Positions 11,106 through 60,040 of a stretch of 64,000 bases of DNA are shown piece by piece (within the stretch, counting starts at the first letter, position 1; every line of letters begins with the position of its first letter). The stretch lies in assembly GCA_023129415.1 (NCBI GenBank), contig JAGMCF010000151.1:1616-65615 (forward strand), given 5' to 3'. Source of the DNA: Candidatus Cloacimonadota bacterium (lineage in GTDB: Bacteria; Cloacimonadota; Cloacimonadia; JGIOTU-2). Position numbers and translations under genes: made by a program. The notes beneath the pieces are model-generated. The model was not told the origin of the DNA and made no database searches. It was given only the letters and a program-made list of their open reading frames with translations.

Positions 11106-11957
11106 CTACGGCGCCCAGACGAGTAGACAAATTTTACCGTTGCGATAAATTTTGATATAATATCGCTTATTGAGATCAATTTCTTCTTGAAGCTGATTTA
11201 ATAATTTATAGTAAGCAATTTGTTTTTTATATTTTTTTATAGATTCTTCAAAAATAAACCAGATATTAGCAATACTTTTTATTGCACGAGAAATACAATC
11301 CTCAGTCAAATTTATAGATTTTTCCCAACGGTCAGGTTTTACTTTAGTTTGAGAAAGAAAATAATTATCAATAAGCATATCATAATATCTATTAGATTTA
11401 TTTATCTGCTTATAAAGATACTCATCAATCCCCGATTTAATCGGGGATTTAATTTTATATCTTCTCTTCCCAGTATTCAAATTTAGACTTTCAAATCTTT
11501 TTCGCACATCGCATTCATAAACCTTATGTGGAGTTTCTTCATATTCAAAGCGATATTTTCCATCTGTATGAAAAGGTTGATGCAAATCAGCAGTATAATG
11601 GGAAATTACTCCTATTTCAAATATAATAGTTTTAAGTGGATTATCCAAAATTCTTTTAAGATATTCTGCACACTTAGGATGATAAATTAAATCTTTGTTA
11701 TTATCAATTATTTTTTGAATTAAGGATATCTCTTTTTTTATCTTCTTTACTACAGAACCAGAATGTCTTCCTTTCTTATCTGGTGTGCAATTGAAATAAT
11801 GATTTGTAGTATCACAAAATATTTTATCTGGAGAAATTATTCCTAACTCAAAATATTCCGGATAAATACTTATTAATCGATTAAATTGCCGAGACATTTT
11901 ATTTAATGCTAATCGGCACATTTTTATGTGAGTTGAAGGATTCCAAATCCATTTCAT
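11106..11957 (-). CDS. Hypothetical protein, possibly phospholipase C / S1-P1 nuclease superfamily
   Basis: 283 aa. N-terminal W-x-x-x-T-H and HYTADLHQPFHT resemble the metal-ligand motifs of that superfamily. Contains an in-frame palindrome at 11427-11449, and the last codons LLVWAP come from a repeat module. Confidence 0.4.
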   Translation of the reverse strand: MKWIWNPSTHIKMCRLALNKMSRQFNRLISIYPEYFELGIISPDKIFCDTTNHYFNCTPDKKGRHSGSVVKKIKKEISLIQKIIDNNKDLIYHPKCAEYLKRILDNPLKTIIFEIGVISHYTADLHQPFHTDGKYRFEYEETPHKVYECDVRKRFESLNLNTGKRRYKIKSPIKSGIDEYLYKQINKSNRYYDMLIDNYFLSQTKVKPDRWEKSINLTEDCISRAIKSIANIWFIFEESIKKYKKQIAYYKLLNQLQEEIDLNKRYYIKIYRNGKICLLVWAP

Positions 11958-12488: not shown

Positions 12489-12505
12489 TCCCGATTTATC
12501 GGGGT
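12489..12505 (-). terminator. CCCGAT..ATCGGG hairpin downstream of the epimerase gene
   Basis: Plus-strand tcccgatttatcggggt. On the minus strand it is followed by agtttaatt. Member of the recurrent CCCGAT hairpin family. Terminator function is only inferred. Confidence 0.35.
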
Positions 12506-12506
12506 C

Positions 12507-12580
12507 AATTCAACCAGTTCAACCAGTTCAACCAGTTCAACCAGTTCAACCATTTCAACCAATTCAACCAATTCAACCAG
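12507..12580. repeat. Tandem 9-bp repeat (WWTTCAACC), 8 units
   Basis: Units: aattcaacc, agttcaacc x4, atttcaacc, aattcaacc x2, then ag. Directly abuts the stop codon at 12582-12584 and lies upstream of smpB. Confidence 0.95.
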
Positions 12581-26940: not shown

Positions 26941-27140
26941 TTAACCCCGTTTCTTACTTTTTGGAGTGCTTGCCTTCGCGTAGCCTATCTTCCATTCCAA
27001 TATAATCTGGATTGAGGGCAGGCTACGGCGAAGCGAGGCGAAAACGATCCCCGATTTATTCGGGGAGAACTTTTCGCAAGTCTCGTTATGCTGAAAGTTC
27101 GTCTCCCGATAAATCGGGATCCTCGTTTCAGCACTCCACA
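26941..27140. repeat. GC-rich composite hairpin element
   Basis: Outer arms ggagtgct (26963-26970) and agcactcc (27130-27137). Arms gccttcgcgtagcct and aggctacggcgaagc. Nested tccccgatttattcgggga and tcccgataaatcggga. The 66-aa track ORF here is rejected. Confidence 0.8.
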
Positions 27141-42954: not shown

Positions 42955-43140
42955 TTTACATAGCGCGGTAAACCGCAGAGAACGCAAATCCCGATAGATA
43001 CGGGATCCCGACTAAAGTCGGGAGAAGACGCAGAGTTCACTGAGTTATTTATTATCTTTGTGTCCTTTGCGTCCATTCTCCGTAGTAGTAAGACTGCTAC
43101 TGCGAAGGATGAACCTACTCAGCGAACTTTGCGGTTAATT
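42955..43140. repeat. GC-rich composite hairpin element
   Basis: gcggtaaaccgc, tcccgatagatacggga, tcccgactaaagtcggga, cgtagtagtaagactgctactgcg. Long-range arms cgcagagttcactgagt (43029-43045) and actcagcgaactttgcg (43108-43124). Confidence 0.8.
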
Positions 43141-43199: not shown

Positions 43200-43796
43200 A
43201 TGAAAATGATTGAATTGAAAAAAGAGGATTACAATAATGTAAAGCTTCATTATCGTTATATCAGTGATAAATACTATAAAGTAATTTATACACAAACCAA
43301 CAATGGTTGGAATATCCAATTTAAACTAACTCAATCTGAAAATAAAATTATAAAGGATTATGAAGAACCCTTAATTGAGGATTGGATGGAAGAAGAAAGT
43401 GAAAATGGTTGTCAAATATTCGGAATCGAAGATGATGGCAATATTGTTGCCTGGCTTACAATTGGAAAGGAAAGTTGGAGTGATAGATTAAGGATATACG
43501 AATTACTTGTTCATGAAGATCATAGAAAGAAAGGTTACGGAAAATTACTTGTCCAAAAAGCAAAAGAAATAGCTAAAGAAAAAAGATGCTATTGTGTAAT
43601 TTTAGAAACACAAACTAACAATTATAATGCGATTGAATTTTACAAAAAATATGGTTTTAAATTATTCGGATGTGACTTAAACTGTTATCAATATAATGAT
43701 ATTAAAAGAAATGAAGTAAGAATTGATATGGTTTGTTATTTAACTCAAGTTTCGCAGGTGGCAGACGGAACAGAGTTCCGTGTTAACCTGAAATGA
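43200..43796 (+). CDS. GNAT-family N-acetyltransferase
   Basis: LLVHEDHRKKGYGKLLVQKAKEIAKE (acetyl-CoA binding Q/R-x-x-G-x-G/A motif), NYNAIEFYKKYGF. The last ~18 codons (LTQVSQVADGTEFRVNLK) are encoded by the repeat element starting at 43741. Confidence 0.75.
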   Translation: MKMIELKKEDYNNVKLHYRYISDKYYKVIYTQTNNGWNIQFKLTQSENKIIKDYEEPLIEDWMEEESENGCQIFGIEDDGNIVAWLTIGKESWSDRLRIYELLVHEDHRKKGYGKLLVQKAKEIAKEKRCYCVILETQTNNYNAIEFYKKYGFKLFGCDLNCYQYNDIKRNEVRIDMVCYLTQVSQVADGTEFRVNLK

Positions 43797-43998
43797 GGTG
43801 GATTAAAATTGTAACTCGCTTCTCTGAAGCGTCTGTCAGCTGGTCTGGGCGCCTGTCTCCCCATATATCGGGAGCCAAGACGGGCCCGAGCCTGAAAGGA
43901 GCTCTGCTCCATATTATGAACCAGAGATTCATAATACAGACGGAACAGAGTTCCGTGTTACTGAGGGAATAGAGTTACCAAGTGCGAAACTTGAGTTA
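43741..43998. repeat. GC-rich mosaic element with 16-nt TIRs and an internal 24-nt direct repeat
   Basis: TIRs taactcaagtttcgca (43741-43756) and tgcgaaacttgagtta (43983-43998). cagacggaacagagttccgtgtta occurs at 43762-43785 and 43937-43960. The right 193 nt is homologous, in inverted orientation, to 50112-50323. Confidence 0.8.
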
Positions 43999-44404
43999 TT
44001 TAAAAAAATAAAAAGATACAAAATATAAAAAAAAAGAATGACAAAATATGAAACCTGAAAACAGTACCTGTATTGTATGGAATGAAAGGAACAGCATATT
44101 GGATATTGTTGTTTGCAAGATATTGAAAGAAAAGAGTTCTAAGGAAGGATTGGTAGCACTTCCGATATTCCATTTAGTTATGTCAATCTATGTTAGTTCA
44201 ATAATCCTTGATTACATATTTTAGGAAAGATAAACGAATAGGGTTGAAGAGAATATAATCTTCTTTTCGAATGGCATTATGTAATAGTATATAAAAATTG
44301 TAATCCTCTTCATTTCTTTTAAAAAAATTTGACAAATAAAATAACACTTCCTGCTTTTACCCTGCTAATTTGGATAAAACAAACAATAGATTTAGGATGT
44401 ATAT

Positions 44405-44620
44405 TATGAAGCGGAGATATCCCGTTCTCCGAAGGATGAAAAGGGTGTTATCTTGTCATGCCAAAGGCATCATGCCCGAGGCAAATCCCGACTTGTCGGG
44501 AGATCCTTCGGATAAATTATCTACCCTGTCTGGGCGCCTGTCTCCCGATATATTCACCCTTCGTAGTACTACGGAGAACGGGTCGGGAGCCAAGACTGAC
44601 CAAGATCGACGGGGTTAAAT
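44405..44620. repeat. GC-rich mosaic element sharing modules with 43741-43998 and 50112-50325
   Basis: catgccaaaggcatcatgcccgaggcaaatcccgacttgtcgggagatccttcgga matches the 50214-50270 module with 3 differences. gtctgggcgcctgtctccc...cgggagccaagac is shared with 43843-43881. Long-range arms cccgttctccgaagg and ccttcg..cggagaacggg. Confidence 0.8.
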
Positions 44621-44803
44621 TATTACACCCCCTAAACCGATAGTTGGTATGGGCTGATGCCTTTTTTAGTCAATTTGGTTAGATGGTAGAGATAAGTCAA
44701 AATCTAATTTTAATCGTCATTTGTATTAACAGCATGGTCAATGGGTTATTCCTGAAATTCAGGAATAAATGCTCATGACCAGTTTAATAATAAGGAGTTA
44801 ATA

Positions 44804-45094
44804 ATGAATATCTATGTAGGCAATTTGTCACGCGAGGTCACCGAAGAGGATTTGCGACAGGCTTTTGAGCCCTTCGGTCAGGTCGATTCCGTCACTGTTA
44901 TTAAAGACAAGTTCAGTGGCGAATCAAGAGGATTCGGATTTGTGGAGATGCCCACTAAAGCTGAAGCCCAGTCCGCGATCAATGGACTGAACGACAAGGA
45001 GTTGAAGGAACGAACGCTTAAAGTCAATGAGGCTCGTCCTCGCTCTGAAGACCGTCGAGGTGGAGGAAGACGAGGTGGGGGGAGGCGCTTCTAG
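44804..45094 (+). CDS. RRM-type glycine/arginine-rich RNA-binding protein
   Basis: NIYVGNL (RNP2), RGFGFVEM (RNP1), C-terminal RRGGGRRGGGRRF. AAGGAG RBS at 44792-44797. Visibly GC-richer than the neighbouring genes. Confidence 0.9.
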   Translation: MNIYVGNLSREVTEEDLRQAFEPFGQVDSVTVIKDKFSGESRGFGFVEMPTKAEAQSAINGLNDKELKERTLKVNEARPRSEDRRGGGRRGGGRRF

Positions 45095-45278
45095 TAAACG
45101 GCATTTCAGACCTACCTGCGGTAGGCAGACATAACAGAGTCATAGTAGAACTTCGCCTGACTTCGCCGTGGAGCTGATGGCAGGGCACTTGCTCTTTGGT
45201 TGAGTTTTGTGCCCTTTCAGAGCTTATTTTGAGATTAGCAGCAGCGCCCCCAAACCTGCCGCAGCTCACGCTTGACCG

Positions 45279-45407
45279 TTATTCTTCCAATTCCTCAAAC
45301 TTCTTTCTCCCCTTTTCAGTAATAATTCTAAAATCTTCTTTTCTAACTGTTATACCTTCTGTATCAAATTGAGTAAGCATCAAAAGGCATATTTTGCGAT
45401 TACCTTA
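45279..45407 (-). pseudogene. Duplicated 3' end of selB (42 codons plus stop), detached copy
   Basis: About 90 percent identical (12 mismatches in ~126 nt by my count) to 46098-46228. Translates without interruption as GNRKICLLMLTQFDTEGITVRKEDFRIITEKGRKKFEELEE*, versus selB GNRKICLLMITQFDSEGITVRKGDYRFITEKGRKKFEELED*. Confidence 0.85.
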
Positions 45408-45601
45408 TTGAAAAATTTGACAATCAATTTTATCAAATTTTATTTTGATTTCATAATAAGTTGAAGTATTGGAAAAGTTAATTTCAAAAGTATGGTGTTA
45501 GTTTTCGAATGTTGAATTACAAATCATAATGTATTATATAATAAAATATTTTGCAATAAGACACATTTAACAAGCAATAGTAGCATGTAATCATCATAAC
45601 T

Positions 45602-45883
45602 ATGCGTATAGAATTTGAATGGGATTCTGACAAAGGAAATAAGAATATCAAGAAACACAGTGTTTCTTTCAATGAAGCTGCAACGATATTTGGCGATCCT
45701 CTGTCTATGACTTTTTACGATCCTGACCATTCCATTGACGAAAACCGATACATCACTATCGGGTTATCATATCTGGGAAAACTGCTTATTGTTTCACATA
45801 CAGATCGGGTGGAGCGCATACGTATCATTGCAACGCACCAAGAGAGTAAATTTTATGAAGAACAAAAATTACACAAAAACTGA
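45602..45883 (+). CDS. brnT: BrnT-family toxin (DUF497)
   Basis: MRIEFEWDSDKGNKNIKKHSVSFNEAATIFGDP...RYITIG...LLIVSHTDR...IRII is the DUF497/BrnT pattern. Confidence 0.85.
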   Translation: MRIEFEWDSDKGNKNIKKHSVSFNEAATIFGDPLSMTFYDPDHSIDENRYITIGLSYLGKLLIVSHTDRVERIRIIATHQESKFYEEQKLHKN

Positions 45884-46094
45884 TAACGAGCTTCGGGCTG
45901 AGTATGATTTATCTCAGTTACATGGAGGTGCCAGGGGTAAATATGTCCAGCGTTTTAACGAAGGTACAAATTTAGTGCTGATAGCCCCAGATGTTGCAAA
46001 GGTTTTTCCAAGTGATAAGGCAGTGAATGAAGCATTACGGTTACTTATGAAAATCGCAAAGACACAAGTCAAACAGAGAGTTCACCTAGGGTGA
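45855..46094 (+). CDS. brnA: BrnA-type antitoxin
   Basis: ATG at 45855, within track ORF 45735-46094. 79 aa, EYDLSQLHGGARGKY pattern. Overlaps the brnT end by 29 nt. Confidence 0.7.
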   Translation: MKNKNYTKTDNELRAEYDLSQLHGGARGKYVQRFNEGTNLVLIAPDVAKVFPSDKAVNEALRLLMKIAKTQVKQRVHLG

Positions 46095-46101
46095 TTTTTC
46101 G

Positions 46102-48073: not shown

Positions 48074-48420
48074 ATGTACGCTAATTTACGCAAATATTTT
48101 TTCTTTGCCACGAATTTACCCTGTGAAATCCTTCAAAGAAGGAATCCCGATATATCGGGATTATTTCACAGGGCAAGCACGAACTGGCACGAACATTTAT
48201 GTATCAATGTAAAAGGCATTTTTGTATTTCTTGTGATACATAATCTATATCACACTTCGCTGGTTCAAGTATGTTACTTGAACCGTTTATTTTAATTCTC
48301 CGGTTCAGATTGCAAATCTGAACCAGCATATAGATTTTAATTTTTGACCTCATCCCTAACCCTTCTCCTATGAGGAGAAGGGAACTAATCTCCCGCGTTT
48401 TAGGAGAAGATTAGTGCAAG
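48074..48420. repeat. selA-selB intergenic region filled by at least 6 hairpin modules
   Basis: ccctgtgaaat[ccttcaaagaagg][aatcccgatatatcgggatt]atttcacaggg, ggttcaagtatgttacttgaacc, ggttcagattgcaaatctgaacc, cccttctcctatgaggagaaggg, ctaatctcc..ggagaagattag. Frame gccacgaatttaccc...gggcaagcacgaactggcacgaaca is shared with 50468-50573. Confidence 0.8.
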
Positions 48421-49963: not shown

Positions 49964-49984
49964 TAAAACATTTTTATGAATTAG

Positions 49985-50076
49985 CAGAGAGGGCAGGAAT
50001 CGAACCTGCCACAGACGGTTTCATCCGCCCACTACTGGTTTTGAAGACCAGCCGAAACACCAGTTCCATCCTCTCT
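49985..50076 (-). tRNA. selC: tRNA-Sec (anticodon UCA)
   Basis: Minus strand: AGAGAGGATGGAACTGGTGTTTCGGCTGGTCTTCAAAACCAGTAGTGGGCGGATGAAACCGTCTGTGGCAGGTTCGATTCCTGCCCTCTCTG. Anticodon loop CUUCAAA; 6-bp anticodon stem; D stem (U)GGAAC/GUUUC(G) with 4-nt loop; long variable arm GGCGG-AUGAAA-CCGUC; T arm GCAGG-UUCGAUU-CCUGC. No encoded CCA. Ends uncertain by 1-2 nt. Confidence 0.85.
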
Positions 50077-50111
50077 TTTTCTTCTCTATAAACTAATTAT
50101 TGAATTATTAC

Positions 50112-50651: not shown

Positions 50652-52361
50652 TCATGATCCTTTCAGGCTCGGCGCCCAGACGGGTGTGTCCCGATTTGTT
50701 TTCGGGACAAGAACAACATAAGTTGGCAGTCCAAGCACTCCAAAATAATCAAGAATTTCTTTCGTTGGAGATTCGTTTAGATTTTCTGCTTTATATTTCA
50801 CCCAGACATAGTTTTCAAGTTTTTCAACAACTTCATCATCCTTAAAAGTCGTAGCATCCATTACCAAACAGTTTTTACACCATGTAGCCCAGAAATCAAT
50901 CATTACAGGTTTTCCTTCTTTTTTTGCTTTTTCAAGTCCTTGAGAAAAAGAATATATCCATGGAAGAGTTGATGTTTCTTCTGCGACTTTAATTTGCTCT
51001 ACAGACTTTAATCTGCTGTGAAATATCTTTACTCCTGTATAACCATAATAAATTGCTATAACAAAAATAATAACACCAAAAATATATTTAATCCAGTCCA
51101 TCCAATTTCCTGGTTTAGGAAGGAATGAAAGACCAGCACCAGCAAATGGCCAGGGGATTGCCATTCCTGCTCCAAGTAAAAATGGTAGCAATAGTCCTGC
51201 TGAATTTCCTTTGGCATAAAGCGTTGTGGAATACAGAATGACAGAAATTAGGACAGGGGCGACACATGCTCCTGCAAGAACAGCAGCAATAACACCCAAT
51301 ACAAAAACGGTTATAAATTTTCCTCTACTTTTTCCTTGTATATTACCACTTCTAAATTTTGAGAAATCAATTGGAATGATATCAAACATAGCCAGTGCAA
51401 GAAGCACAAAGATTACCGCAATAATAATATTAAACCAAGGAGAAGCATTAATGGCACCAAATTTTGAGCCCGTTAAAACCACGATAACCCCAAGCGCTCC
51501 ATAGGCTAAAGTCATACCAAGTCCATAGGTCCCGCCAATTAAAAATCCCCTACCTTTTGATTCTGATTGGGTGCCAGCCCCAAGCACAGCGATTGTAATA
51601 GGTATCATTGGAAGAACACAGGGAGTAAGATTAAGTGCTATCCCTCCAATCAAAATCAGTAGAACAACTAACCAAATACTTTTCCCGGTAAATGTATTAG
51701 AATTAAAATCATTTGAACTTTCCGCCTGATCTAAAAAGGCGATAAATTCATTACTTTTTTGATATCCTCCGGTGACACCTGCAATAACAAAATCATCTAA
51801 TAATTTTTTAATTTCATTAAACTCATAGTCTGAAGTAATATGCTTTGTGGAAATTATTTCCTTTAGAGAAGCAATACTATCTTCTTTGTTAATACTGCCA
51901 ATGGTAACAGGTAATACCAATTCAACCTCTTCAGGAAAAAGGCACAGACCAGCATCATCACAAAATTGATAGCCAGCCACAACTTTTATTTCGTAAAAGC
52001 CATGCTTAACCTTTTTACTAACAGTAAAATCTCTTATTAAGGTAACCTTATGATGATAAGTTATTACTCCATCTTTATCTTTTTCTCCTACTGGATAAAC
52101 AGTGGACTTAAATGAAATTCCATCTATTTTATCAACTTCAATAAAAAAATAATCCTTTTCCAGAAGTTGATGATGTCCTGGAGGAATTAAAAAATTAACA
52201 CTAATTTGTCCTTTTTGTCCTATTTTGATTGTTTCAGGTTCAATTTTTCCTGAAACAACTTGTTCTTCTGCAGAAATCTTCACAACAGAAAATATAAAAA
52301 GAATTGCGATGAGTATAATATAGTTTCTTTTTTGTGTCATCGTGCCCATTTTCTTCATCAT
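50652..52361 (-). CDS. DsbD-like thiol:disulfide interchange protein (CcdA-type membrane core plus C-terminal thioredoxin domain)
   Basis: Signal peptide, LNLTPCVLPMIPITI (DsbD/CcdA transmembrane Cys motif), C-terminal FWATWCKNC thioredoxin motif. The last ~17 codons (VPKTNRDTPVWAPSLKGS) lie in a repeat module. Confidence 0.8.
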   Translation of the reverse strand: MMKKMGTMTQKRNYIILIAILFIFSVVKISAEEQVVSGKIEPETIKIGQKGQISVNFLIPPGHHQLLEKDYFFIEVDKIDGISFKSTVYPVGEKDKDGVITYHHKVTLIRDFTVSKKVKHGFYEIKVVAGYQFCDDAGLCLFPEEVELVLPVTIGSINKEDSIASLKEIISTKHITSDYEFNEIKKLLDDFVIAGVTGGYQKSNEFIAFLDQAESSNDFNSNTFTGKSIWLVVLLILIGGIALNLTPCVLPMIPITIAVLGAGTQSESKGRGFLIGGTYGLGMTLAYGALGVIVVLTGSKFGAINASPWFNIIIAVIFVLLALAMFDIIPIDFSKFRSGNIQGKSRGKFITVFVLGVIAAVLAGACVAPVLISVILYSTTLYAKGNSAGLLLPFLLGAGMAIPWPFAGAGLSFLPKPGNWMDWIKYIFGVIIFVIAIYYGYTGVKIFHSRLKSVEQIKVAEETSTLPWIYSFSQGLEKAKKEGKPVMIDFWATWCKNCLVMDATTFKDDEVVEKLENYVWVKYKAENLNESPTKEILDYFGVLGLPTYVVLVPKTNRDTPVWAPSLKGS

Positions 52362-52411: not shown

Positions 52412-52445
52412 TCAACAAAAAGGCGGAATATTTCTATTCCGCCCC
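52412..52445 (-). terminator. Rho-independent terminator of the YVTN-repeat gene
   Basis: Minus strand reads ggcggaatagaaatattccgcc followed by tttttgttg. Confidence 0.8.
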
Positions 52446-52712
52446 TTGTTACCCTTGCGAAGGTTTAGAACCTTCGCAAGGTTCTTTGTTTCCAATCTTA
52501 ATTATCTTATCAAAATTTATTATACGACCTGTCCTTCGTAGTCTTGACGAAGGAGGAAGCACCACTTCGTCCTGATGATCCCCAATTCCTGAGCTCGTCA
52601 GGAACGGGCTTAATCGGGGAGGGACTTCGTAGTGTAAACTTTTCTGAACTCCATAGTTTTAACGAAGGAGTTAGCGAAGGAGAATTTATCCTCCGAAGCC
52701 TTAGCGAAGGAG
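52446..52712 (-). repeat. Conserved 3'UTR backbone with 4 extra hairpin modules (paralogue of 56633-56782)
   Basis: 59 nt (52469-52527) are identical to 56671-56729. Extra modules at about 52528-52557, 52573-52621 and 52644-52671. A 12-bp direct repeat ttagcgaaggag (52671-52682 and 52701-52712) flanks an 18-nt spacer. Confidence 0.85.
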
Positions 52713-55286
52713 GATCATTTTCTTGATTTGAGACTTAAAGTTCGTGGTTTCTATCTGATAGAAATAGATTCCGGACGATAGCTTTTTGCCACTCTCATCT
52801 TGTCCATTCCAGGCTACAGAATGTTTGCCAACGGTTTCTCTACTATGAACCAACTTCTTTACTAATTGTCCTCGTAGATTATAGATATTAAGGATAATTT
52901 TCCCGGGTTTTTGCAATTGGTAGGAAATGATTGTTTCAGATCTTAACGGGTTGGGATAGTTTTGTCCAAGTTTCGCTACAGGAGGCTGACCACTGTATGG
53001 CTCTTCTACACTAACAACGAAACTGTCTGTGATTACCGAAATGTTGCTAGAATATGGATTAGCAATGTAAACACTGTTTTGAAACTCGTTCCATATTCCA
53101 GCATCTGGTCCTATGCCCACAGGAATGGTAGCAACAACCTCATTAGTTCCTCCATCAATAATGGTGACATCGTTACTCCACCAGTTACCACAATAGACCT
53201 TGTTGTTAATAGAGTTCCAGAGCAAGAAATCTGGCATAGCTCCAACTGAAATAGTAGTAATCACCTCGTCCGTCTCACCATTGATAACAGTGATGTCATC
53301 ACTAAAATCGTTTGCACAGTATATTTTATTATCTATAGAGTTCCAGACCAGGTCCCATGGCATGTCACCTGCAGGAACAGTAGTAATAACTATATCACTT
53401 GCACCATCAATTATAGTGACATCGTTACTTAACTGGTTAGCACAGTAAACCTTATCGTTGGTAGAGTTCCAGCAAAGAGCTTGAGGCCCTGTCCCCGCTG
53501 GGATAGTAGCGATAACCGCATTTGTCTGACCGTCAATAACAGTGAGATTATCAGTAAATATATTCGCATGATACACCTTATTGTCGGTCTGATTCCAACA
53601 CAAGACACCCCATGATTCATCAGGCAAAGGCACGGAAGCAATAATTGCGTTACTCACTCCGTCAATGATATCTACCGCATATCCTTGACAACCACAGTAA
53701 ACCTTATTATTGATCGAATTCCAGCAAAAACCTTGGGGTCCCCATGTTACTGGGATTGTGGTGATAATGTTATTAGTTTGTCCATCAATGATGGTTACAT
53801 TGTCACCCCAGTAATTTGAGCAGTATATTTTGTTGTTAATGGAGTTCCAGATAAGAGCCCAAGGGGTCTCTCCTACTGGGATATTAGTAATAACCTGATT
53901 AGATTCTCCATCAATCACAGTAACGCTATTGCTCATCTGATTTGCTGAATAGACCTTGTTGTTGGTGGAGTTCCAAGTAAGTGCGCGAGGTTCATCCCCT
54001 ACCTGGATGGTGGAGACCAACCCGTTTGTCTCACCATTGATAATTGCTACCTTGGCACCATTGTGATCCACACAGTAAATTTCATTTTCTATGAGGTTCC
54101 AAGCCATATCCTGAATATTGGTACCAATTGAAAGTGTAGTGATGACTTCATCTGTCTCTCCATCAATGATGGTGACACTCTGACCTGTATAGCCGTTTGC
54201 ACCACAGTAAACTTTATTGTTAACCTGATTGCAACACATATCACGTGAATAGGAACATACAAGTGGAATAGTAGTAAGTACGGTATTTGTCTCTCCATCA
54301 ATGATAGTGATACTGGGCGATGACTGATTGGACGAATACACCTTGTTGCTCACAGGATTCCAGATGATCCAGAGCGGCTTATCTCCTACAGAAATAGTAG
54401 TAATCACTGTATTTGTCTCTCCATCTATAATAGTAATATTATCACTTCCACAGTTTGCACAGTAGATCTTATTGTTAGTTTCATTCCAGCAAAGGCGACT
54501 GGGGTTAGTGCCAGCTGGAATATTAGTGATGACCTGATTCGTTATTCCATCAATGACCGTCACAGTTCCATTTTCCCAGTTAGCACAATAGACATTATTG
54601 TTAGTTGAGTTCCAGACAATACCGTAAGGATTGCCACCGACTGCAATCTCCGTAATAATTGTATCCGTTTCACCATCAATCACGGTTACAGTGCCGCTAT
54701 AGAAATTAGCTGCATAGACCTTATTCTCGGTCTGATTCAGAGTTAGCTCGTAGGGCTGATCTCCCACAGGTAAAGTAGTAATAATTGTATCTGCCACACC
54801 GTCAATGATAACCACATTAGCACTGTAGTACATATCACTTGAGCAATAGATCTTGTTATTGATAGGGTTCCATATTATACTCCAGCAAACTCCATTAAAT
54901 GGAATTAGTTTGGTCCTTTGATGAGTGGCTCCACCAAAGACAATAACGCCTTCTTGAGAATCGTAATAGCCACCTCCACCAACATAGATCTTATTGTTGG
55001 CATTACAAGTAACACTTCTAGGACCATACATACCGCCCAGACTATCTGGCAAAGTAATGGTTGTTTCAAGCCATTGTCTTGGTGTATATCCATCACGTAT
55101 TCTATCCTTACTCTCGAATACCTCAAACTCGTTAGTAAATGCTGACATCCCTTGCTCGAGCTTAATCTTAACACCTGGTTCCAGCAATTTGCCGGAATAT
55201 TCCCGAGGCTTTTTCACCTCGTTAGCCGAAAGCCCAAAGCCCACAAAAAGTAGGATGGACATAGTTATTAGCATTGCTTTTTTCAT
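52701..55286 (-). CDS. YVTN-family beta-propeller repeat protein with T9SS-type C-terminal sorting domain
   Basis: Start at MKKAMLITMSILLFVGFG (AAGGAG RBS). About 16 repeats of VTVIDG-TN-VITTIPVG--P--L-WN--NNKVYCAN. C-terminus NYPNPL...IYNLRGQLV...GIYFYQIET. The track start at 55397 is rejected. Confidence 0.8.
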   Translation of the reverse strand: MKKAMLITMSILLFVGFGLSANEVKKPREYSGKLLEPGVKIKLEQGMSAFTNEFEVFESKDRIRDGYTPRQWLETTITLPDSLGGMYGPRSVTCNANNKIYVGGGGYYDSQEGVIVFGGATHQRTKLIPFNGVCWSIIWNPINNKIYCSSDMYYSANVVIIDGVADTIITTLPVGDQPYELTLNQTENKVYAANFYSGTVTVIDGETDTIITEIAVGGNPYGIVWNSTNNNVYCANWENGTVTVIDGITNQVITNIPAGTNPSRLCWNETNNKIYCANCGSDNITIIDGETNTVITTISVGDKPLWIIWNPVSNKVYSSNQSSPSITIIDGETNTVLTTIPLVCSYSRDMCCNQVNNKVYCGANGYTGQSVTIIDGETDEVITTLSIGTNIQDMAWNLIENEIYCVDHNGAKVAIINGETNGLVSTIQVGDEPRALTWNSTNNKVYSANQMSNSVTVIDGESNQVITNIPVGETPWALIWNSINNKIYCSNYWGDNVTIIDGQTNNIITTIPVTWGPQGFCWNSINNKVYCGCQGYAVDIIDGVSNAIIASVPLPDESWGVLCWNQTDNKVYHANIFTDNLTVIDGQTNAVIATIPAGTGPQALCWNSTNDKVYCANQLSNDVTIIDGASDIVITTVPAGDMPWDLVWNSIDNKIYCANDFSDDITVINGETDEVITTISVGAMPDFLLWNSINNKVYCGNWWSNDVTIIDGGTNEVVATIPVGIGPDAGIWNEFQNSVYIANPYSSNISVITDSFVVSVEEPYSGQPPVAKLGQNYPNPLRSETIISYQLQKPGKIILNIYNLRGQLVKKLVHSRETVGKHSVAWNGQDESGKKLSSGIYFYQIETTNFKSQIKKMILLR

Positions 55287-55453
55287 CTTAACTCCTTTAT
55301 TCCGCCAGTTAACTGCGGAATTTTTTCTCTTTTTTCGATTAACATAATAATGAGCACTTCTCAATAGAAGTATCTCTCCTATTTTAGACATTAACATTCC
55401 GACATTTTCCCCAATAAAAATAAGTGTCTAAAAACAAAATCAGATACACATTT

Positions 55454-56597: not shown

Positions 56598-56632
56598 ATA
56601 AAAACGAAAGGCGGAATATTGCTATTCCGCCC
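56598..56632 (-). terminator. Rho-independent terminator of the FG-GAP gene
   Basis: Minus strand reads ggcggaatagcaatattccgcc followed by tttcgttttt. Near-identical to the 52412-52445 terminator. Confidence 0.8.
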
Positions 56633-56782
56633 CTTGTTACCCTTGCGAATCCCCAATTAAATTGGGGATCAAACCTTCGCAAGGTTCTTTGTTTCCAATC
56701 TTAATTATCTTATCAAAATTTATTATACGAAGCACCACTTTGTCCCGAATATAGGGACTTCGTAGTGTAAACTTTAGCGAAG
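56633..56782 (-). repeat. Conserved 3'UTR backbone (paralogue of 52446-52712) with one private hairpin insertion
   Basis: Private module tccccaattaaattggggatca (56649-56670) sits in the loop of ccttgcgaa..ttcgcaagg. The small hairpin gtcccgaatatagggac sits where the other copy has a 49-nt nested structure. Confidence 0.85.
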
Positions 56783-59761
56783 TATAATCATTTTCCTAAT
56801 TTCTGATTTGAAATTCTTAGTTTCGAGTTGATAGAAATATACACCATTTGACACCAATTTTCCAGAAAAATCTTTTCCGTTCCAATATATGGAGTAGCCC
56901 CGATGTATCGGGGCTATTGTGGAGAGAGACTCTCCACACTCCAAAGTTTTCACTAATTGCCCCTTGATGTTATAAATCTTTATCTGCCGTGATCCGTGTA
57001 AATCTGTGGCTAAATTAAATGAGATCGTAGTATATATGCTGAAAGGATTAGGATAATTCTGTAAAATAATTGAATTTTTCACTTTTGTTGATTGCTCATC
57101 CACACCAACTATTGCATCAAGTCCTCCTGAATAGCAATATACCCAGCCATTTCTACCACCAACCACCATTTCCATTGAACCATCACAAGCAATATCTGGG
57201 ATTGCTGCAATAGCATCAACAGGTGTTCCAACATATATTGACTCCAATTCTGAGCCATTTACTCCATTAAGGAAATAAGCATAATTATTTGAGTAAAGAG
57301 TTCCAACAACCAAATCATTAATTCCATCTCCACTTACATCAGCAATTCTTGAAGCATTCCACGGTTGGTCTGCAACTGGATGATTCCAAATTTGATTTCC
57401 ACTATATCCATCAACTACAAGAGCATTATGAAAACCGCTATGTGCAATAACAAAATCTGAATAGCCATCACCGTTTACATCATCTAATTTGTCCAATCTA
57501 AGTATGATGGCTGTTCCAATGTAACCATTATAGATTTCATCTCCATTTGTTGGATCAATAAAATAATAATGCCCACTAAAGTCACCGGAAATAATATCCT
57601 TAATTCTATCTCCATTGACATCATCTAACTGTGCTAATGCCCAGACAGAGGAACCAGGAGTATCAAATGACCAGAATATAGTACCAGTTTCTCCATTAAT
57701 ACCATAGGCATAACCTATGGTTTCATATTCATTAGAAGCACCAGCCAATACATCTGGTTGTCCGTCACCTGTGCAGTCTTCAATTCCAATTACAGAGAAA
57801 CCGGGTCCACCTAATGGGCATTCCCAAATTGATAATCCAGTTAAACCATCAAGACAATATATTCTTTTTGGACCTGTATCGCTTGCATCATCACCAGTAG
57901 AAGCCAAAACATCAAGAACACCATCACTGTTATAATCGTATTTACAATTAACCTGATAGACCCAGCCACCGCTTCCATATTCGTGTGTATCATGTGTCCA
58001 TATAGTTTCTCCCGTTTTTCCAGAAAGTGTATGTATTGAACGGTCACCACCTGTAGTGCCTACAACTACATCTTTATAGGAATCACTATCTACATCTTGT
58101 GTAATAAATAAACCACGATGTGAAAAGATATTTCCTGAATATATTTCTTTCTCCCAAAGAATATCTGCATAACCAGAAGAATTTCCATTAAAGCAACGAA
58201 TATAATTATCTTCTGAACAGATAATTACATCATCAATATCATCATAATTAATATCGGAAATATGTTCAATTGCTTTGGGACTATTATCCCAGCTCGTTGT
58301 TATTTGATATTGCCATAAAGTCTCACCAATTTCATAATCAGAATCATCACCTGTTCCTTCTAAAGTTACTTCAACAGGATCTTTTCCAGGATCATTACTT
58401 ACGATAAACAATGTTCCTTCATATAAAATAGCTTCTTCAGGATTAAACCAGATACCAATTTGGACAGTATCAAGGACATTTATATTTATTGGAAAACTTA
58501 CATCAGAATCCACAATAAAGTGAGTATCATCACAGTAAATACTATCTATCACTAATGTGGAATCTCCAATGTTTTGAATCTCCATAAACCAGCGAGTTAT
58601 TGCATTGATTCTCACTAAACCGTAATTATGGCTTGTTACGGGTACATAAATACTTGGTCCCGGATTAACTGCATTTCCTGTAAGAGTAATATCAACTTCT
58701 ATGTGTAATGGGTCATTAGATTGTATTGTTGCAATTGCGTTTAAAGGTTCAGGATTTATTGGTGTATATATAAAAGGTATTTCTTCTTGATTTCCAGGAT
58801 TGATAGTTATTGGAAATTCAAGGGGGCAGGTAACACAAATATTGTATCCTGTGAAGTAGACATTATCAATCACTAAATCTGCAGTGCCGATATTTTCAGC
58901 AATTGCATTCCAGGTTGCAGAATCTCCGATAGTTACAGTTCCAAAGTTATGATTTGTAATTGGAACATAGATCTCTGGTGTTCCACCTCCTCCTAAATCA
59001 ATCTTGTAAAGAAAGTCAACATCATAACCTTCTCCATTATCACAATACCAGAGATATTGTCCATCAAATACAATACCTGCGGGATCAACACCTTCTGAGG
59101 GGTATGTCTCTAAAAGAGTTCCATTTGAAGCATCAATCATATAAAGCGCATCTCCCCAGTAGTCAGCCATCCATAGATTGTCGTATTCAATACATAGATC
59201 CCATGGTTGATTATCCGGTGCTGGAAATTGAGTAAAAATATTTCCCAGGGTATCAACCTTATAGATCTCACCATTAGGATCGTAATAGGCAGCAACCCAG
59301 AAATCTCCCTCATCATAAGCAATGCCGGACATATAGTGAGTTGGAAGATCAAATTGTGAAATTAAGTTACCGCTCATATCAAGTTGCATAGCAACAGCTG
59401 GAATTGAACTGCTTCCCGGATGATCGGTTGTCCAGAGATATGAGCCATCATAGGTAAGCCCAAAAGCATCTCCTTGGGGTCCTGTAAATAGTAGAGAATA
59501 ACTTCCATCGCTCGGGTCAATCTGGTATATTCTACCTCCATCTGCGCCATAGATTCCACAGTAAAGATTTGTGCCATCATAAGCAAGTCCGGAAGCACTT
59601 TCTGGAATGGGGTAAGTTGCTACAATCGTCCAATCACGATTTTTTAAACTATTATTTTCAAATTCATTTGCTTGAAGATTATTTGAAGAGCTCGCTAATA
59701 CAAATGTTGGTAATATTAACAAGGTAAGAAATAAGCCAATCATTTTACTTTTTTTCATCAT
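56774..59761 (-). CDS. Large secreted protein: N-terminal propeller-like region, two Ig-like (HYDIN/ASH-type) domains, FG-GAP/VCBS repeats, T9SS-type C-terminal sorting domain
   Basis: Signal peptide. Repeated HNFGTVTIGD...GTADLVIDNVYF and HNYGLVRIN...GDSTLVIDSIYC. FG-GAP-like DVNGDGYSDFVIA, DVSGDGINDLVVG, DCTGDGQPDVLAG. C-terminus NYPNPF...IYNIKGQLV...GVYFYQLET. Confidence 0.75.
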   Translation of the reverse strand: MMKKSKMIGLFLTLLILPTFVLASSSNNLQANEFENNSLKNRDWTIVATYPIPESASGLAYDGTNLYCGIYGADGGRIYQIDPSDGSYSLLFTGPQGDAFGLTYDGSYLWTTDHPGSSSIPAVAMQLDMSGNLISQFDLPTHYMSGIAYDEGDFWVAAYYDPNGEIYKVDTLGNIFTQFPAPDNQPWDLCIEYDNLWMADYWGDALYMIDASNGTLLETYPSEGVDPAGIVFDGQYLWYCDNGEGYDVDFLYKIDLGGGGTPEIYVPITNHNFGTVTIGDSATWNAIAENIGTADLVIDNVYFTGYNICVTCPLEFPITINPGNQEEIPFIYTPINPEPLNAIATIQSNDPLHIEVDITLTGNAVNPGPSIYVPVTSHNYGLVRINAITRWFMEIQNIGDSTLVIDSIYCDDTHFIVDSDVSFPININVLDTVQIGIWFNPEEAILYEGTLFIVSNDPGKDPVEVTLEGTGDDSDYEIGETLWQYQITTSWDNSPKAIEHISDINYDDIDDVIICSEDNYIRCFNGNSSGYADILWEKEIYSGNIFSHRGLFITQDVDSDSYKDVVVGTTGGDRSIHTLSGKTGETIWTHDTHEYGSGGWVYQVNCKYDYNSDGVLDVLASTGDDASDTGPKRIYCLDGLTGLSIWECPLGGPGFSVIGIEDCTGDGQPDVLAGASNEYETIGYAYGINGETGTIFWSFDTPGSSVWALAQLDDVNGDRIKDIISGDFSGHYYFIDPTNGDEIYNGYIGTAIILRLDKLDDVNGDGYSDFVIAHSGFHNALVVDGYSGNQIWNHPVADQPWNASRIADVSGDGINDLVVGTLYSNNYAYFLNGVNGSELESIYVGTPVDAIAAIPDIACDGSMEMVVGGRNGWVYCYSGGLDAIVGVDEQSTKVKNSIILQNYPNPFSIYTTISFNLATDLHGSRQIKIYNIKGQLVKTLECGESLSTIAPIHRGYSIYWNGKDFSGKLVSNGVYFYQLETKNFKSEIRKMIILR

Positions 59762-59944: not shown

Positions 59945-60040
59945 TTATTAACCACCAACTTAAGTTGGTGGTTAATGAAACAAAAAAAAGCATTAACCGT
60001 TTTACTCGTCTGGGCGCCGTAGCCTGAACGGTTTCGTATT
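59945..60040. repeat. Palindrome ttaaccaccaacttaagttggtggttaa plus a GTCTGGGCGCCGTAGCCTGAA module
   Basis: 28-nt perfect palindrome at 59951-59978. aaccgttttactcgtctgggcgccgtagcctgaacggtt at 59996-60034 carries the same 24-mer found (inverted) at 11103-11126. Confidence 0.8.

What the first reader, a model, noticed from the sequence alone, without database searches (positions are those of the whole stretch)
56895..56938. Two adjacent palindromes sit in frame inside the sorting-domain coding sequence (RPE-like)
Within the C-terminal domain of the 995-aa protein, tagccccgatgtatcggggcta (56895-56916) and tgtggagagagactctccaca (56918-56938) are near-perfect palindromes. They encode CGESLST-I-APIHRG. 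The first is a member of the intergenic CCCGAT..ATCGGG family.

The paralogous domain of the 52701-55286 protein has a shorter, non-palindromic segment at this position: HSRETVGKHSVA versus ECGESLSTIAPIHRGYSIY, which is 6 residues longer. This resembles the in-frame insertion of palindromic elements into ORFs known from Rickettsia RPEs. It shows the modules are not restricted to intergenic DNA.
Basis: partly seen in the sequence, partly recalled or inferred. Interest (0 to 1): 0.6.

Follow-up and report, generated by a model that had tools for sequence, protein, structure and literature searches.

The report
REP doublet inside a secretion-tag gene
The two palindromes are the two arms of one roughly 60-base selfish DNA repeat (a REP doublet, whose relatives flank a dedicated transposase gene) that sits in frame in a tolerant surface loop of a secretion-signal domain. 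It is a known kind of element, found here in a new phylum and an unusual place.

Summary
Window 56895-56916 has a perfect 10-bp stem and 56918-56938 a perfect 9-bp stem. Both lie in frame in the T9SS C-terminal domain (CTD) of the 995-aa protein, encoding CGESLST-IAPIHRGY.

They are not two independent modules. With an outer stem (TGGAGT 56890-56895 / ACTCCA 56938-56943) they form one roughly 60-nt three-way element. It consists of two REP hairpins in inverted orientation with the tags outside: GTAG on hairpin B, GTGT on hairpin A.

The same element occurs in about 40 CTD genes of several marine Cloacimonadota MAGs. It also occurs in non-coding DNA next to unrelated genes. In at least six related MAGs it lies on both sides of IS200-like Y1 (RAYT) transposase genes. 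That makes it a GTAG REP doublet (REPIN-like) carried as an in-frame passenger.

An AlphaFold model places the coded residues in a low-confidence loop between two beta-strands.

The window copy is a hybrid. The apex of hairpin B (usually GAC-GGA-GTC) is replaced by a CCCGAT..ATCGGG core, identical to an intergenic copy in a relative.

The RPE-like reading is right in substance. The element's identity, its RAYT link and its age (inherited within a CTD subfamily, not a fresh insertion) are new. No RAYT gene lies in this window.

The parts
56774..59761 (-). CDS of the 995-aa secreted beta-propeller/FG-GAP protein with a T9SS C-terminal sorting domain; host gene of the element
   Evidence: ORF. 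Pfam domains. Syntenic orthologues (GroEL-gene-TrmB/DsbD).
56783..57055 (-). T9SS CTD (Por_Secre_tail), residues 903-993
   Evidence: Pfam PF18962 scores 24.0 bits, just under the 27-bit cut-off. The AF2 model is a 7-strand beta-sandwich, pLDDT 81.5.
56883..56949 (-). Whole REP-doublet element (three-way junction: outer stem plus hairpin A plus hairpin B), read in frame as L-ECGESLSTIAPIHRGYSI
   Evidence: CM R1 hit of 72.9 bits, E 6e-16, and the only copy in the window. DNA fold z about -8. Alignment A6 and pair counts.
56890..56895 (.). Outer stem, one arm (TGGAGT on the + strand); pairs with 56938-56943
   Evidence: (helix 1, 84.8% of cells paired across 38 copies).
56938..56943 (.). Outer stem, other arm (ACTCCA on the + strand)
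56894..56897 (+). GTAG tag directly 5' of hairpin B (REP orientation is the + strand)
   Evidence: the only GTAG-tagged hairpin in the window. The same tag is seen on all copies.
56895..56916 (.). The outer pairs TAGCC/GGCTA are as in the common form TAGCCGAC-GGA-GTCGGCTA.
56899..56912 (.). CCCGAT-GT-ATCGGG apex that replaces the usual GAC-GGA-GTC apex of hairpin B (net +3 nt). It belongs to the untagged CCCGAT mini-hairpin family.
   Evidence: identical 14-mer after the stop codon in L003; L098 x2 and L016 carry it with the loop inverted.
56918..56938 (.). Its tag is GTGT rather than GTAG, which avoids an in-frame TAG stop.
   Evidence: 97.6% of cells paired; 4 of 8 pairs changed on both sides.
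11427..11449 (.). Second in-CDS hairpin of the CCCGAT family (AATCCCCGATTTAATCGGGGATT), encoding SPIKSG in a Zn-dependent phospholipase-C-like protein
   Evidence: Outgroup orthologues lack it and the close relative has a nested, longer version.

Best explanation
The two palindromes are the two hairpins of a single roughly 60-nt GTAG-tagged REP doublet. This is an 'HH dimer' in Di Nocera's terms and REPIN-like in Bertels and Rainey's. The element belongs to a repeat family of marine Cloacimonadota whose members flank IS200-like Y1 (RAYT) transposase genes.

Inferred history:
1. A copy landed, or was retained, in the loop between two beta-strands of a T9SS CTD. It did so in a frame and with a tag variant (GTGT instead of GTAG) that avoid stop codons.
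2. The CTD is a sorting signal; from general knowledge of T9SS it is removed after export (not tested here). The site is a surface loop. The extra 15-18 residues were therefore tolerated.
3. The cassette then spread with this CTD subfamily, by duplication and gene conversion among CTD genes.
4. In the window's lineage the apex of hairpin B was later replaced by a CCCGAT-type mini-hairpin. This matches the nested hairpin-in-loop pattern seen throughout this genome's intergenic DNA.

Shown here: the element's anatomy, its family membership, its coding and non-coding copies, the RAYT flanking in relatives, and the loop position.

Inferred: mobilisation as single-stranded DNA by the RAYT, the neutrality of the insert, and the order of events.
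For: - Anatomy: perfect stems, an outer stem and three-way fold with z about -8, and a GTAG tag.
- Family: GYGGAGAGTCTCTCTCYRC occurs in about 30 sites of Cloacimonadota MAGs, nearly all reading L-ECGESLS...YSI-W(N/D)G in CTDs.
- An independent scan for hairpin B in metagenomes gave CTD copies plus non-coding copies beside unrelated genes. In those copies both hairpins carry GGAGTAG tags (or a GGAGTCG variant on hairpin A): TTTGGAGTAGGCGAGTCTCTCGCC..AGCCGACGGAGTCGGCTACTCCAAA.
- Pairing: hairpin A is 97.6% paired, with changes on both sides at 4 of 8 pairs.
- Nucleotide-level rather than peptide-level inheritance: hairpin B is read in different frames (ADGVG versus ATESL), and the CCCGAT apex occurs with either loop orientation (APIHRG versus APMYRD).
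- RAYT link: Y1_Tnp ORFs score above the Pfam cut-off. The element lies on both sides of them in L110 and L131. It also lies next to them in all of L169-L175, on both sides where both flanks are held (L170, L171, L174).
- Tolerant site: residues 59-73 of the CTD model span the loop 60-70, with pLDDT below 50 at residues 63-66.
- Orthologues and paralogues without the element have shorter, unrelated loops.
- Published precedent for intragenic REPs and GTAG HH dimers: PMC3733652.
Against: - No RAYT gene and no second copy of the doublet occur in the 64-kb window.
- The source genome beyond the window could not be read.
- A pattern-limited scan did not return the RAYT from the closest relative MAG, CAYNOU01.
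- Hairpin A in all CDS copies lacks a true GTAG.
- No empty-site or excision variant was seen in four cold-seep metagenomes.
- No target-site signature could be defined.
- The covariation and strong conservation of hairpin A would also fit selection on structure.
Confidence: 0.78

Rival explanations
1. The double hairpin is a selected structure in the mRNA of CTD genes. It might act in ribosome pausing, in protecting the 3' end of the mRNA, or in regulation. On this view its conservation reflects function rather than selfish spread.
For: - Hairpin A is conserved at the nucleotide level across many CTD genes, with compensatory changes.
- Some G-T pairs fall on the sense strand (L001, L087).
- The position is constant, 114-150 nt before the stop codon.
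Against: - The same element sits in non-coding DNA beside unrelated genes, in both orientations relative to its neighbours, and flanks transposase genes.
- Hairpin B has decayed in several CTD copies (L054, L088, L102, L094).
- As many mismatches favour the antisense strand (L072, L074, L104) as the sense strand.
- No Rfam family matches.
- The constant position is explained by common descent of the CTD subfamily.
Confidence: 0.1
2. The direction of descent is the reverse. The sequence arose as an ordinary CTD loop, and the non-coding copies are CTD fragments left by recombination downstream of CTD genes.
For: Several non-coding copies lie right after CTD stop codons (L110, L126, L106:6848). 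The 3' regions of CTD genes show duplicated remnants of the CDS end.
Against: - Non-coding copies also lie beside unrelated genes: an aminotransferase-like ORF, a histidine kinase and a PBP neighbourhood.
- Many non-coding copies carry GTAG on hairpin A, which would be a stop codon in the CTD frame.
- They flank RAYT genes on both sides.
- CTDs without the cassette have a shorter, canonical loop.
Confidence: 0.07
3. The palindromes were made locally, by template switching or quasi-palindrome correction, or arose by chance. On this view they are not copies of any dispersed family.
For: Some hairpins in these 3' regions do look locally made. For example, the stop codon of the paralogue sits in ATCCTCC..GGAGGAT. 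The loop flip AC/GT is a classic template-switch outcome.
Against: Identical 19-21-nt sequences recur at dozens of unrelated loci and genomes. Shuffles give zero matches.
Confidence: 0.03

Closest known systems
REP / REPIN-RAYT systems (GTAG-tagged REPs; HH dimers; Bertels & Rainey 2011, PMC3116915; Di Nocera et al. 2013, PMC3733652)
   Same: - Short GC-rich hairpins with a GTAG tag beside the stem.
- Two units in inverted orientation with the tags outside, giving a larger fold.
- Copies downstream of genes, some supplying stop codons (L142).
- Some copies inside genes.
- A Y1 (IS200-like) transposase gene flanked by the repeats.
   Different: - The phylum is Cloacimonadota, which is not named among the phyla in the parts of that survey read here.
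- The two units of the doublet are different hairpins: GGCGAG-TCT-CTCGCC and AGCCGAC-GGA-GTCGGCT.
- One in-frame copy has become a heritable part of a protein-domain subfamily (the T9SS CTD).
- The window copy has a foreign mini-hairpin as its apex.
Rickettsia palindromic elements (RPE; Ogata et al. 2000, from my own knowledge; RPE-4/6 as CGTC REPs in PMC3733652)
   Same: A palindromic repeat found both between genes and in frame within ORFs, at positions the protein fold tolerates.
   Different: The element is about 60 nt against roughly 100-150 nt for RPE-1. Its tag is GTAG, not CGTC. The taxon is different. A candidate transposase is identified for this family.
BIMEs of enterobacteria (mosaics of different REP types; from my own knowledge)
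   Same: Adjacent, different REP-type hairpins in alternating orientation, separated by short linkers of variable length.
   Different: BIMEs are extragenic and bind IHF, gyrase and Pol I. Nothing of that kind was tested here.
Small dispersed repeats of Nostoc (Elhai et al. 2008; from my own knowledge, paper not held)
   Same: This applies to the CCCGAT/CCCCAAT mini-hairpins only. They are about 17-21 nt, occur at many sites, are nested inside other repeats and hairpins, and have no coding capacity.
   Different: The phylum and the sequences differ. Here some copies lie in frame in CDSs.

Membership tests
GTAG REP / REPIN | Short (about 20-40 nt) GC-rich palindromic unit | tested here: met
   10-bp and 9-bp perfect stems.
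GTAG REP / REPIN | Conserved GTAG (or near variant) at one end of the stem | tested here: met
   GTAG lies at 56894-56897 beside hairpin B. Hairpin B carries GTAG in the non-coding copies, and hairpin A carries GTAG or a GTCG variant. Hairpin A in CDS copies has GTGT or GTGC, within the degeneracy reported in PMC3733652.
GTAG REP / REPIN | Two units in inverted orientation forming a doublet | tested here: met
   The tags are outside, and the outer stem is TGGAGT/ACTCCA.
GTAG REP / REPIN | Multi-copy, dispersed and mainly extragenic within a genome | tested here: inconclusive
   Many coding and non-coding copies occur in related MAGs and metagenomes. There is only one copy in this 64-kb window, and the rest of the source genome was not available.
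GTAG REP / REPIN | A RAYT (Y1 transposase) gene flanked by the same repeats | tested here: met
   This was met in relatives only. PF01797 hits are above the cut-off. The element lies on both sides of the gene in L110, L131, L170, L171 and L174, and on the one flank held in L169, L172, L173 and L175. There is none in the window.
GTAG REP / REPIN | Mobilisation by the RAYT | not testable with these tools
   This needs biochemistry or population data. No excision joints were seen.
Rickettsia palindromic elements | Element of about 100-150 bp from Rickettsia-specific families | tested here: not met
   The element is about 60 nt, from Cloacimonadota, and carries a GTAG tag rather than CGTC (PMC3733652).
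Rickettsia palindromic elements | In-frame presence in ORFs at structurally tolerant sites | tested here: met
   It is in frame. It lies in loop 60-70 of the CTD model, with low pLDDT.
T9SS C-terminal sorting domain (host domain) | Por_Secre_tail profile match and a beta-sandwich fold at the C-terminus | tested here: inconclusive
   PF18962 scores 24.0 bits against a cut-off of 27. The paralogue without the insert scores 31. The AF2 model shows a 7-strand sandwich, pLDDT 81.5. The NYPNPF motif and KMIILR end are conserved.
MITE | Terminal inverted repeats plus a target-site duplication | tested here: inconclusive
   The inverted ends GGAGTAG/CTACTCC are present. No consistent duplication is seen in the flanks of the non-coding copies.
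CCCGAT..ATCGGG mini-hairpin family of this genome | TCCC(C)GAT-loop-ATC(G)GGGA core without a GTAG tag, often nested in the loop of another hairpin | tested here: met
   This holds for the apex only. The 14-mer CCCGATGTATCGGG is identical to L003's intergenic copy. The arms are identical to those at 11427 and 27048. It is nested in the TAGCC/GGCTA stem.

The most novel reading that the evidence does not exclude
Beside the RAYT-linked REP doublet, this lineage may hold a second, much smaller class of mobile DNA. These are untagged 17-21-nt GC-rich mini-hairpins (TCCCCGAT.., TCCCCAATTAAATTGGGGA, TCCCGAC..). They would copy themselves preferentially into the apical loops of existing hairpins, including REPs, and in frame into protein loops. 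The mechanism is unknown. The window's hairpin B would then be a REP caught with such a module in its apex.
Probability: 0.25. Interest if true: 0.75.

Novelty: new member of a known kind. Interest (0 to 1): 0.45.

Why it matters
- It extends REP/REPIN-RAYT systems to Cloacimonadota, an uncultured phylum of anoxic sediments and digesters. It also gives a covariance model and a candidate transposase for them.
- It shows a selfish repeat becoming a stable, inherited piece of a protein domain. One insertion was propagated through a whole family of T9SS sorting signals. This is a clear natural example of how repeats lengthen protein loops.
- For annotation, it explains an odd, conserved 'ECGESLS..ADGVGYS' motif in CTDs. 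It also explains why the Pfam CTD score drops below threshold here.
- The nested mini-hairpins that share the site are the part that could lead to something new.

Tried and rejected
- An exact 44-nt search of genome contigs found nothing, so the source genome is not in that collection.
- The window protein is not on record for contig look-up.
- Laying contigs of four cold-seep metagenomes on the site showed no reads that skip the hairpins. The abundant GT>AC loop variant comes with other nearby differences. It cannot be told apart from paralogous CTDs or strains, so it is not evidence of flipping at this locus.
- Rfam gave only tRNA-Sec in the window, and rRNA/tRNA in related loci. No known RNA family covers the element.
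- The idea that G-T pairs mark the transcribed strand was rejected: mismatches favour both strands about equally.
- Tandem heptamers seen in the CTD loops of relatives suggested a link to heptamer repeats. TRF shows nothing comparable in the window, so this was left as a side note.
- I first read the pair as 'two independent modules' and then as a 'conserved RNA structure'. Both readings gave way once the hairpin-B scan returned non-coding and RAYT-flanking copies.
- The Elhai 2008 paper could not be fetched.
Its hits were then confirmed with Pfam.
Full report
**1. The observation**

The sequence is as described. On the + strand, TAGCCCCGAT-GT-ATCGGGGCTA lies at 56895-56916 and TGTGGAGAG-AGA-CTCTCCACA at 56918-56938. 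Both lie inside the minus-strand ORF 56774-59761 (995 aa). In the sense strand they read ECGESLSTIAPIHRGY.

Neither palindrome, nor the CCCGAT..ATCGGG pattern, occurs in any of 100 dinucleotide-preserving shuffles.

The window has 32% G+C. GC-rich perfect hairpins (stem of at least 7 bp) are about 50 times over-represented in its 11.3 kb of intergenic DNA: 24 seen against 0.45 expected. They are rare in the 52.7 kb of CDS: 10 seen against 2.1 expected. The two in this gene are among the four longest in any CDS.

**2. The host gene and the site**

The protein is a beta-propeller/FG-GAP protein with a T9SS C-terminal sorting domain. Its relatives are annotated as Cloacimonadota. The gene is syntenic in L001 (79% identity) and L003 (66%): ClpB, GroEL, this gene, then TrmB and/or DsbD.

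An AlphaFold model of the last 112 residues (pLDDT 81.5) gives a seven-strand sandwich. The hairpin-coded residues 59-73 cover the loop 60-70 between strands 53-59 and 71-77. That loop has the lowest confidence in the domain.

The window's paralogue (52701-55397) has a canonical loop six residues shorter and no palindrome.

**3. Comparison with orthologues and paralogues**

The orthologue in L001 has two hairpins at the same place. The first is TGCGGAGAG-TCT-CTCTCTGCA, with one compensatory pair and one G-T pair. The second is a different hairpin, AAAGCGAC-GGA-GTCGCTTT. More distant orthologues have unrelated, shorter loops.

In CTD genes of the closest relative MAG, in-frame GC-rich hairpins are common at this loop and at a second loop. 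Several are bounded by clean indels.
- A 21-nt ATCCCCAATTAAATTGGGGAT is present in L021 and absent from L028b.
- A 19-nt module is present in L028a and absent from L020.
- Identical modules occur in intergenic DNA and in CDSs. TCCCCGATTTACTCGGGGA is found at L001:1069 and L028:1903. TCCCCAATTAAATTGGGGA is found at window 56649 and in L021 and L028.

A second case in the window is 11427-11449, inside a Zn-phospholipase-C-like gene. It adds SPIKSG, which three outgroup orthologues lack. The close relative carries a longer, nested version.

So hairpin modules inside CDSs are real and recurrent in this lineage.

**4. What the pair actually is**

A genome scan for hairpin A returned about 30 sites in Cloacimonadota MAGs. 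Nearly all read L-ECGESLS-x-x-ADGVGYSI-W(N/D)G. The common nucleotide cassette is GAGTGTGGAGAGTCTCTCTCCACA-ATAGCCGACGGAGTCGGCTAC.

An independent metagenome scan for that hairpin B returned more CTD copies. It also returned many copies with no long ORF across them, beside unrelated genes.

The non-coding copies show the full anatomy: TTTGGA-GTAG-GCGAG-TCT-CTCGC-C..linker..AGCCGAC-GGA-GTCGGCT-ACTCCAAA. This is two hairpins, each abutted by GGAGTAG (a GGAGTCG variant on hairpin A in some copies), in inverted orientation with the tags outside. The tags pair as an outer stem.

The window has the same anatomy. On the + strand it reads GGA-GTAG-CCCCGATGTATCGGGG-CTA-TT-GTGGAGAGAGACTCTCCAC-AC-TCC. The predicted fold is a three-way junction at -21.2 kcal/mol, z about -8.

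In an alignment of 38 copies, hairpin A is 97.6% paired, with changes on both sides at 4 of 8 pairs. The outer stem is 85% paired but hardly varies.

In CDS copies the tag of hairpin A is GTGT or GTGC. A GTAG there would put TAG in frame. The element is read in different frames in different copies (ADGVG versus ATESL). In L142 it supplies the last eight codons and the stop of a histidine kinase. What is inherited is therefore the nucleotide palindrome, not a peptide.

**5. Link to a transposase**

Three of these ORFs score above the Pfam cut-off for PF01797, Y1_Tnp.

In L110 and L131 the 186/187-aa gene has the element on both sides. In L110 the upstream neighbour is a CTD gene that itself carries an in-frame copy.

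The same protein (82-91% identity) is present in six Cloacimonadota MAGs. The covariance model finds the element immediately next to the gene in all of L169-L175, and on both sides where both flanks are held (L170, L171, L174).

This arrangement defines REP/REPIN-RAYT systems (PMC3116915). The tags-outside dimer is the 'HH dimer' of GTAG REPs, and intragenic REPs are on record (PMC3733652).

A different RAYT in L120 is flanked by another GTAG hairpin, GTAG-CCCGAACC-TCT-GGTTCGG. These genomes therefore hold several REP families.

**6. The window copy is a hybrid**

Its hairpin B keeps the outer TAGCC/GGCTA. Its apex is CCGAT-AC-ATCGG on the sense strand, instead of GAC-GGA-GTC (+3 nt, still in frame). 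The same apex occurs, with the loop inverted, in L098 (twice) and L016. It occurs degenerate in L055, and as a full TCCCGATAAAATCGGGA in L018/L106.

The 14-mer is identical to an intergenic hairpin just after the stop codon of the orthologous gene in L003.

None of the window's other 33 GC-rich hairpins carries GTAG. The intergenic CCCGAT, CCCGAC and CCCCAAT hairpins are therefore a separate, untagged class.

These untagged hairpins are typically nested in the loop of another hairpin: 27048, 27104, 48143, 56649 and about 52570. Homologous sites with and without the inner hairpin exist. How they spread is not explained.

**7. Mechanism and confidence**

Shown: the anatomy, the family, the coding and non-coding copies, the RAYT association in relatives, and the tolerant loop.

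Inferred: that the RAYT moves the doublet as single-stranded DNA. Also inferred: one ancient in-frame copy was kept because the CTD loop tolerates it, and then spread with the CTD subfamily by duplication and gene conversion. L001's two paralogues are identical through this region. A further inference is that the CCCGAT apex is a later, nested event.

Weak points are these. There is no RAYT and no second doublet in the window. The rest of the source genome is unavailable. No excision variant was seen in metagenomes.

**8. Verdict**

The RPE-like reading is right in outcome, but the object is a REP doublet of a RAYT-linked family, embedded in frame and inherited with a CTD subfamily. It is a new member of a known kind, with a moderately interesting twist. 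The untagged nested mini-hairpins remain an open side question.

Noticed in passing
window 56640-56773 and 52445-52700: Both T9SS genes are followed by a homologous composite of nested hairpins of about 130-250 nt, lying between the stop codon and the real terminator (GGCGGAATA..TATTCCGCC plus a T-run). The orthologous spacer in L001 lacks it. A metagenome contig also skips 56631-56783.
   Followed up: partly
window 11427-11449: A CCCGAT-family hairpin lies in frame (SPIKSG) in a Zn-dependent phospholipase-C-like gene. It is absent from three outgroup orthologues. In L049 it is expanded to a triple-nested 48-nt version (SPTIPSPIGSGTAGTG).
   Followed up: yes
window 27048-27066, 27104-27119, 48143-48162, 56649-56669, about 52560-52625: Untagged GC-rich mini-hairpins sit inside the loops of other hairpins. 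This hairpin-in-hairpin nesting is seen at nearly every intergenic copy.
   Followed up: partly
window 52690-52720: The stop codon of the paralogous T9SS gene lies in the loop of a hairpin (ATCCTCC..GGAGGAT). The motif CCTTCG(C/T)TAA, which is the CDS end LLR-stop, is repeated several times downstream.
   Followed up: no
window 50687-50709: The last codons of the DsbD-like gene (..PKTNRDTP..) run through a TGTCCCGA..TCGGGACA hairpin. The C-terminal tail may be repeat-derived.
   Followed up: no
window 59947-59976: A perfect 30-nt palindrome, ATTAACCACCAACTT|AAGTTGGTGGTTAAT, lies between groEL and the 995-aa gene. It may be a terminator or an operator.
   Followed up: no
window 12509-12580: An eight-copy tandem 9-mer (TTCAACCAG) lies directly beside a CCCGAT hairpin (12490-12503).
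   Followed up: no
window 43797-46101: A 2.3-kb stretch has no long ORF. It holds repeated hairpins (ACGGAAC-AGA-GTTCCGT at 43765 and 43940; TCCCGAC hairpins at 43006 and 44486).
   Followed up: no
window 49984-50077: A tRNA-Sec gene (anticodon TCA) lies on the minus strand.
   Followed up: no
L003:8718-8988, L027, L020, L022, L028: The CTD loops of relatives that lack hairpins often hold tandem heptamers in frame: CTCCGAA x3 = ELRTPNSE, CAAAATT x3, and AAGGTAA x2.
   Followed up: partly
L142:2726-2780: A histidine-kinase gene takes its last eight codons (YGVGESLA) and its stop codon from the REP doublet.
   Followed up: partly
L120:1-1060: A second, different RAYT (215 aa) is flanked by another GTAG hairpin (GTAG-CCCGAACC-TCT-GGTTCGG). 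It is followed by a tandem array of units about 60 nt long.
   Followed up: partly
L112:7187-7250, L154, L004:6800-6830, L121: In some copies hairpin A is replaced by a TCCGGCAGCTGCCGGA / TCCGCCAGCTGGCGGA-type palindrome. This is a further interchangeable module.
   Followed up: no
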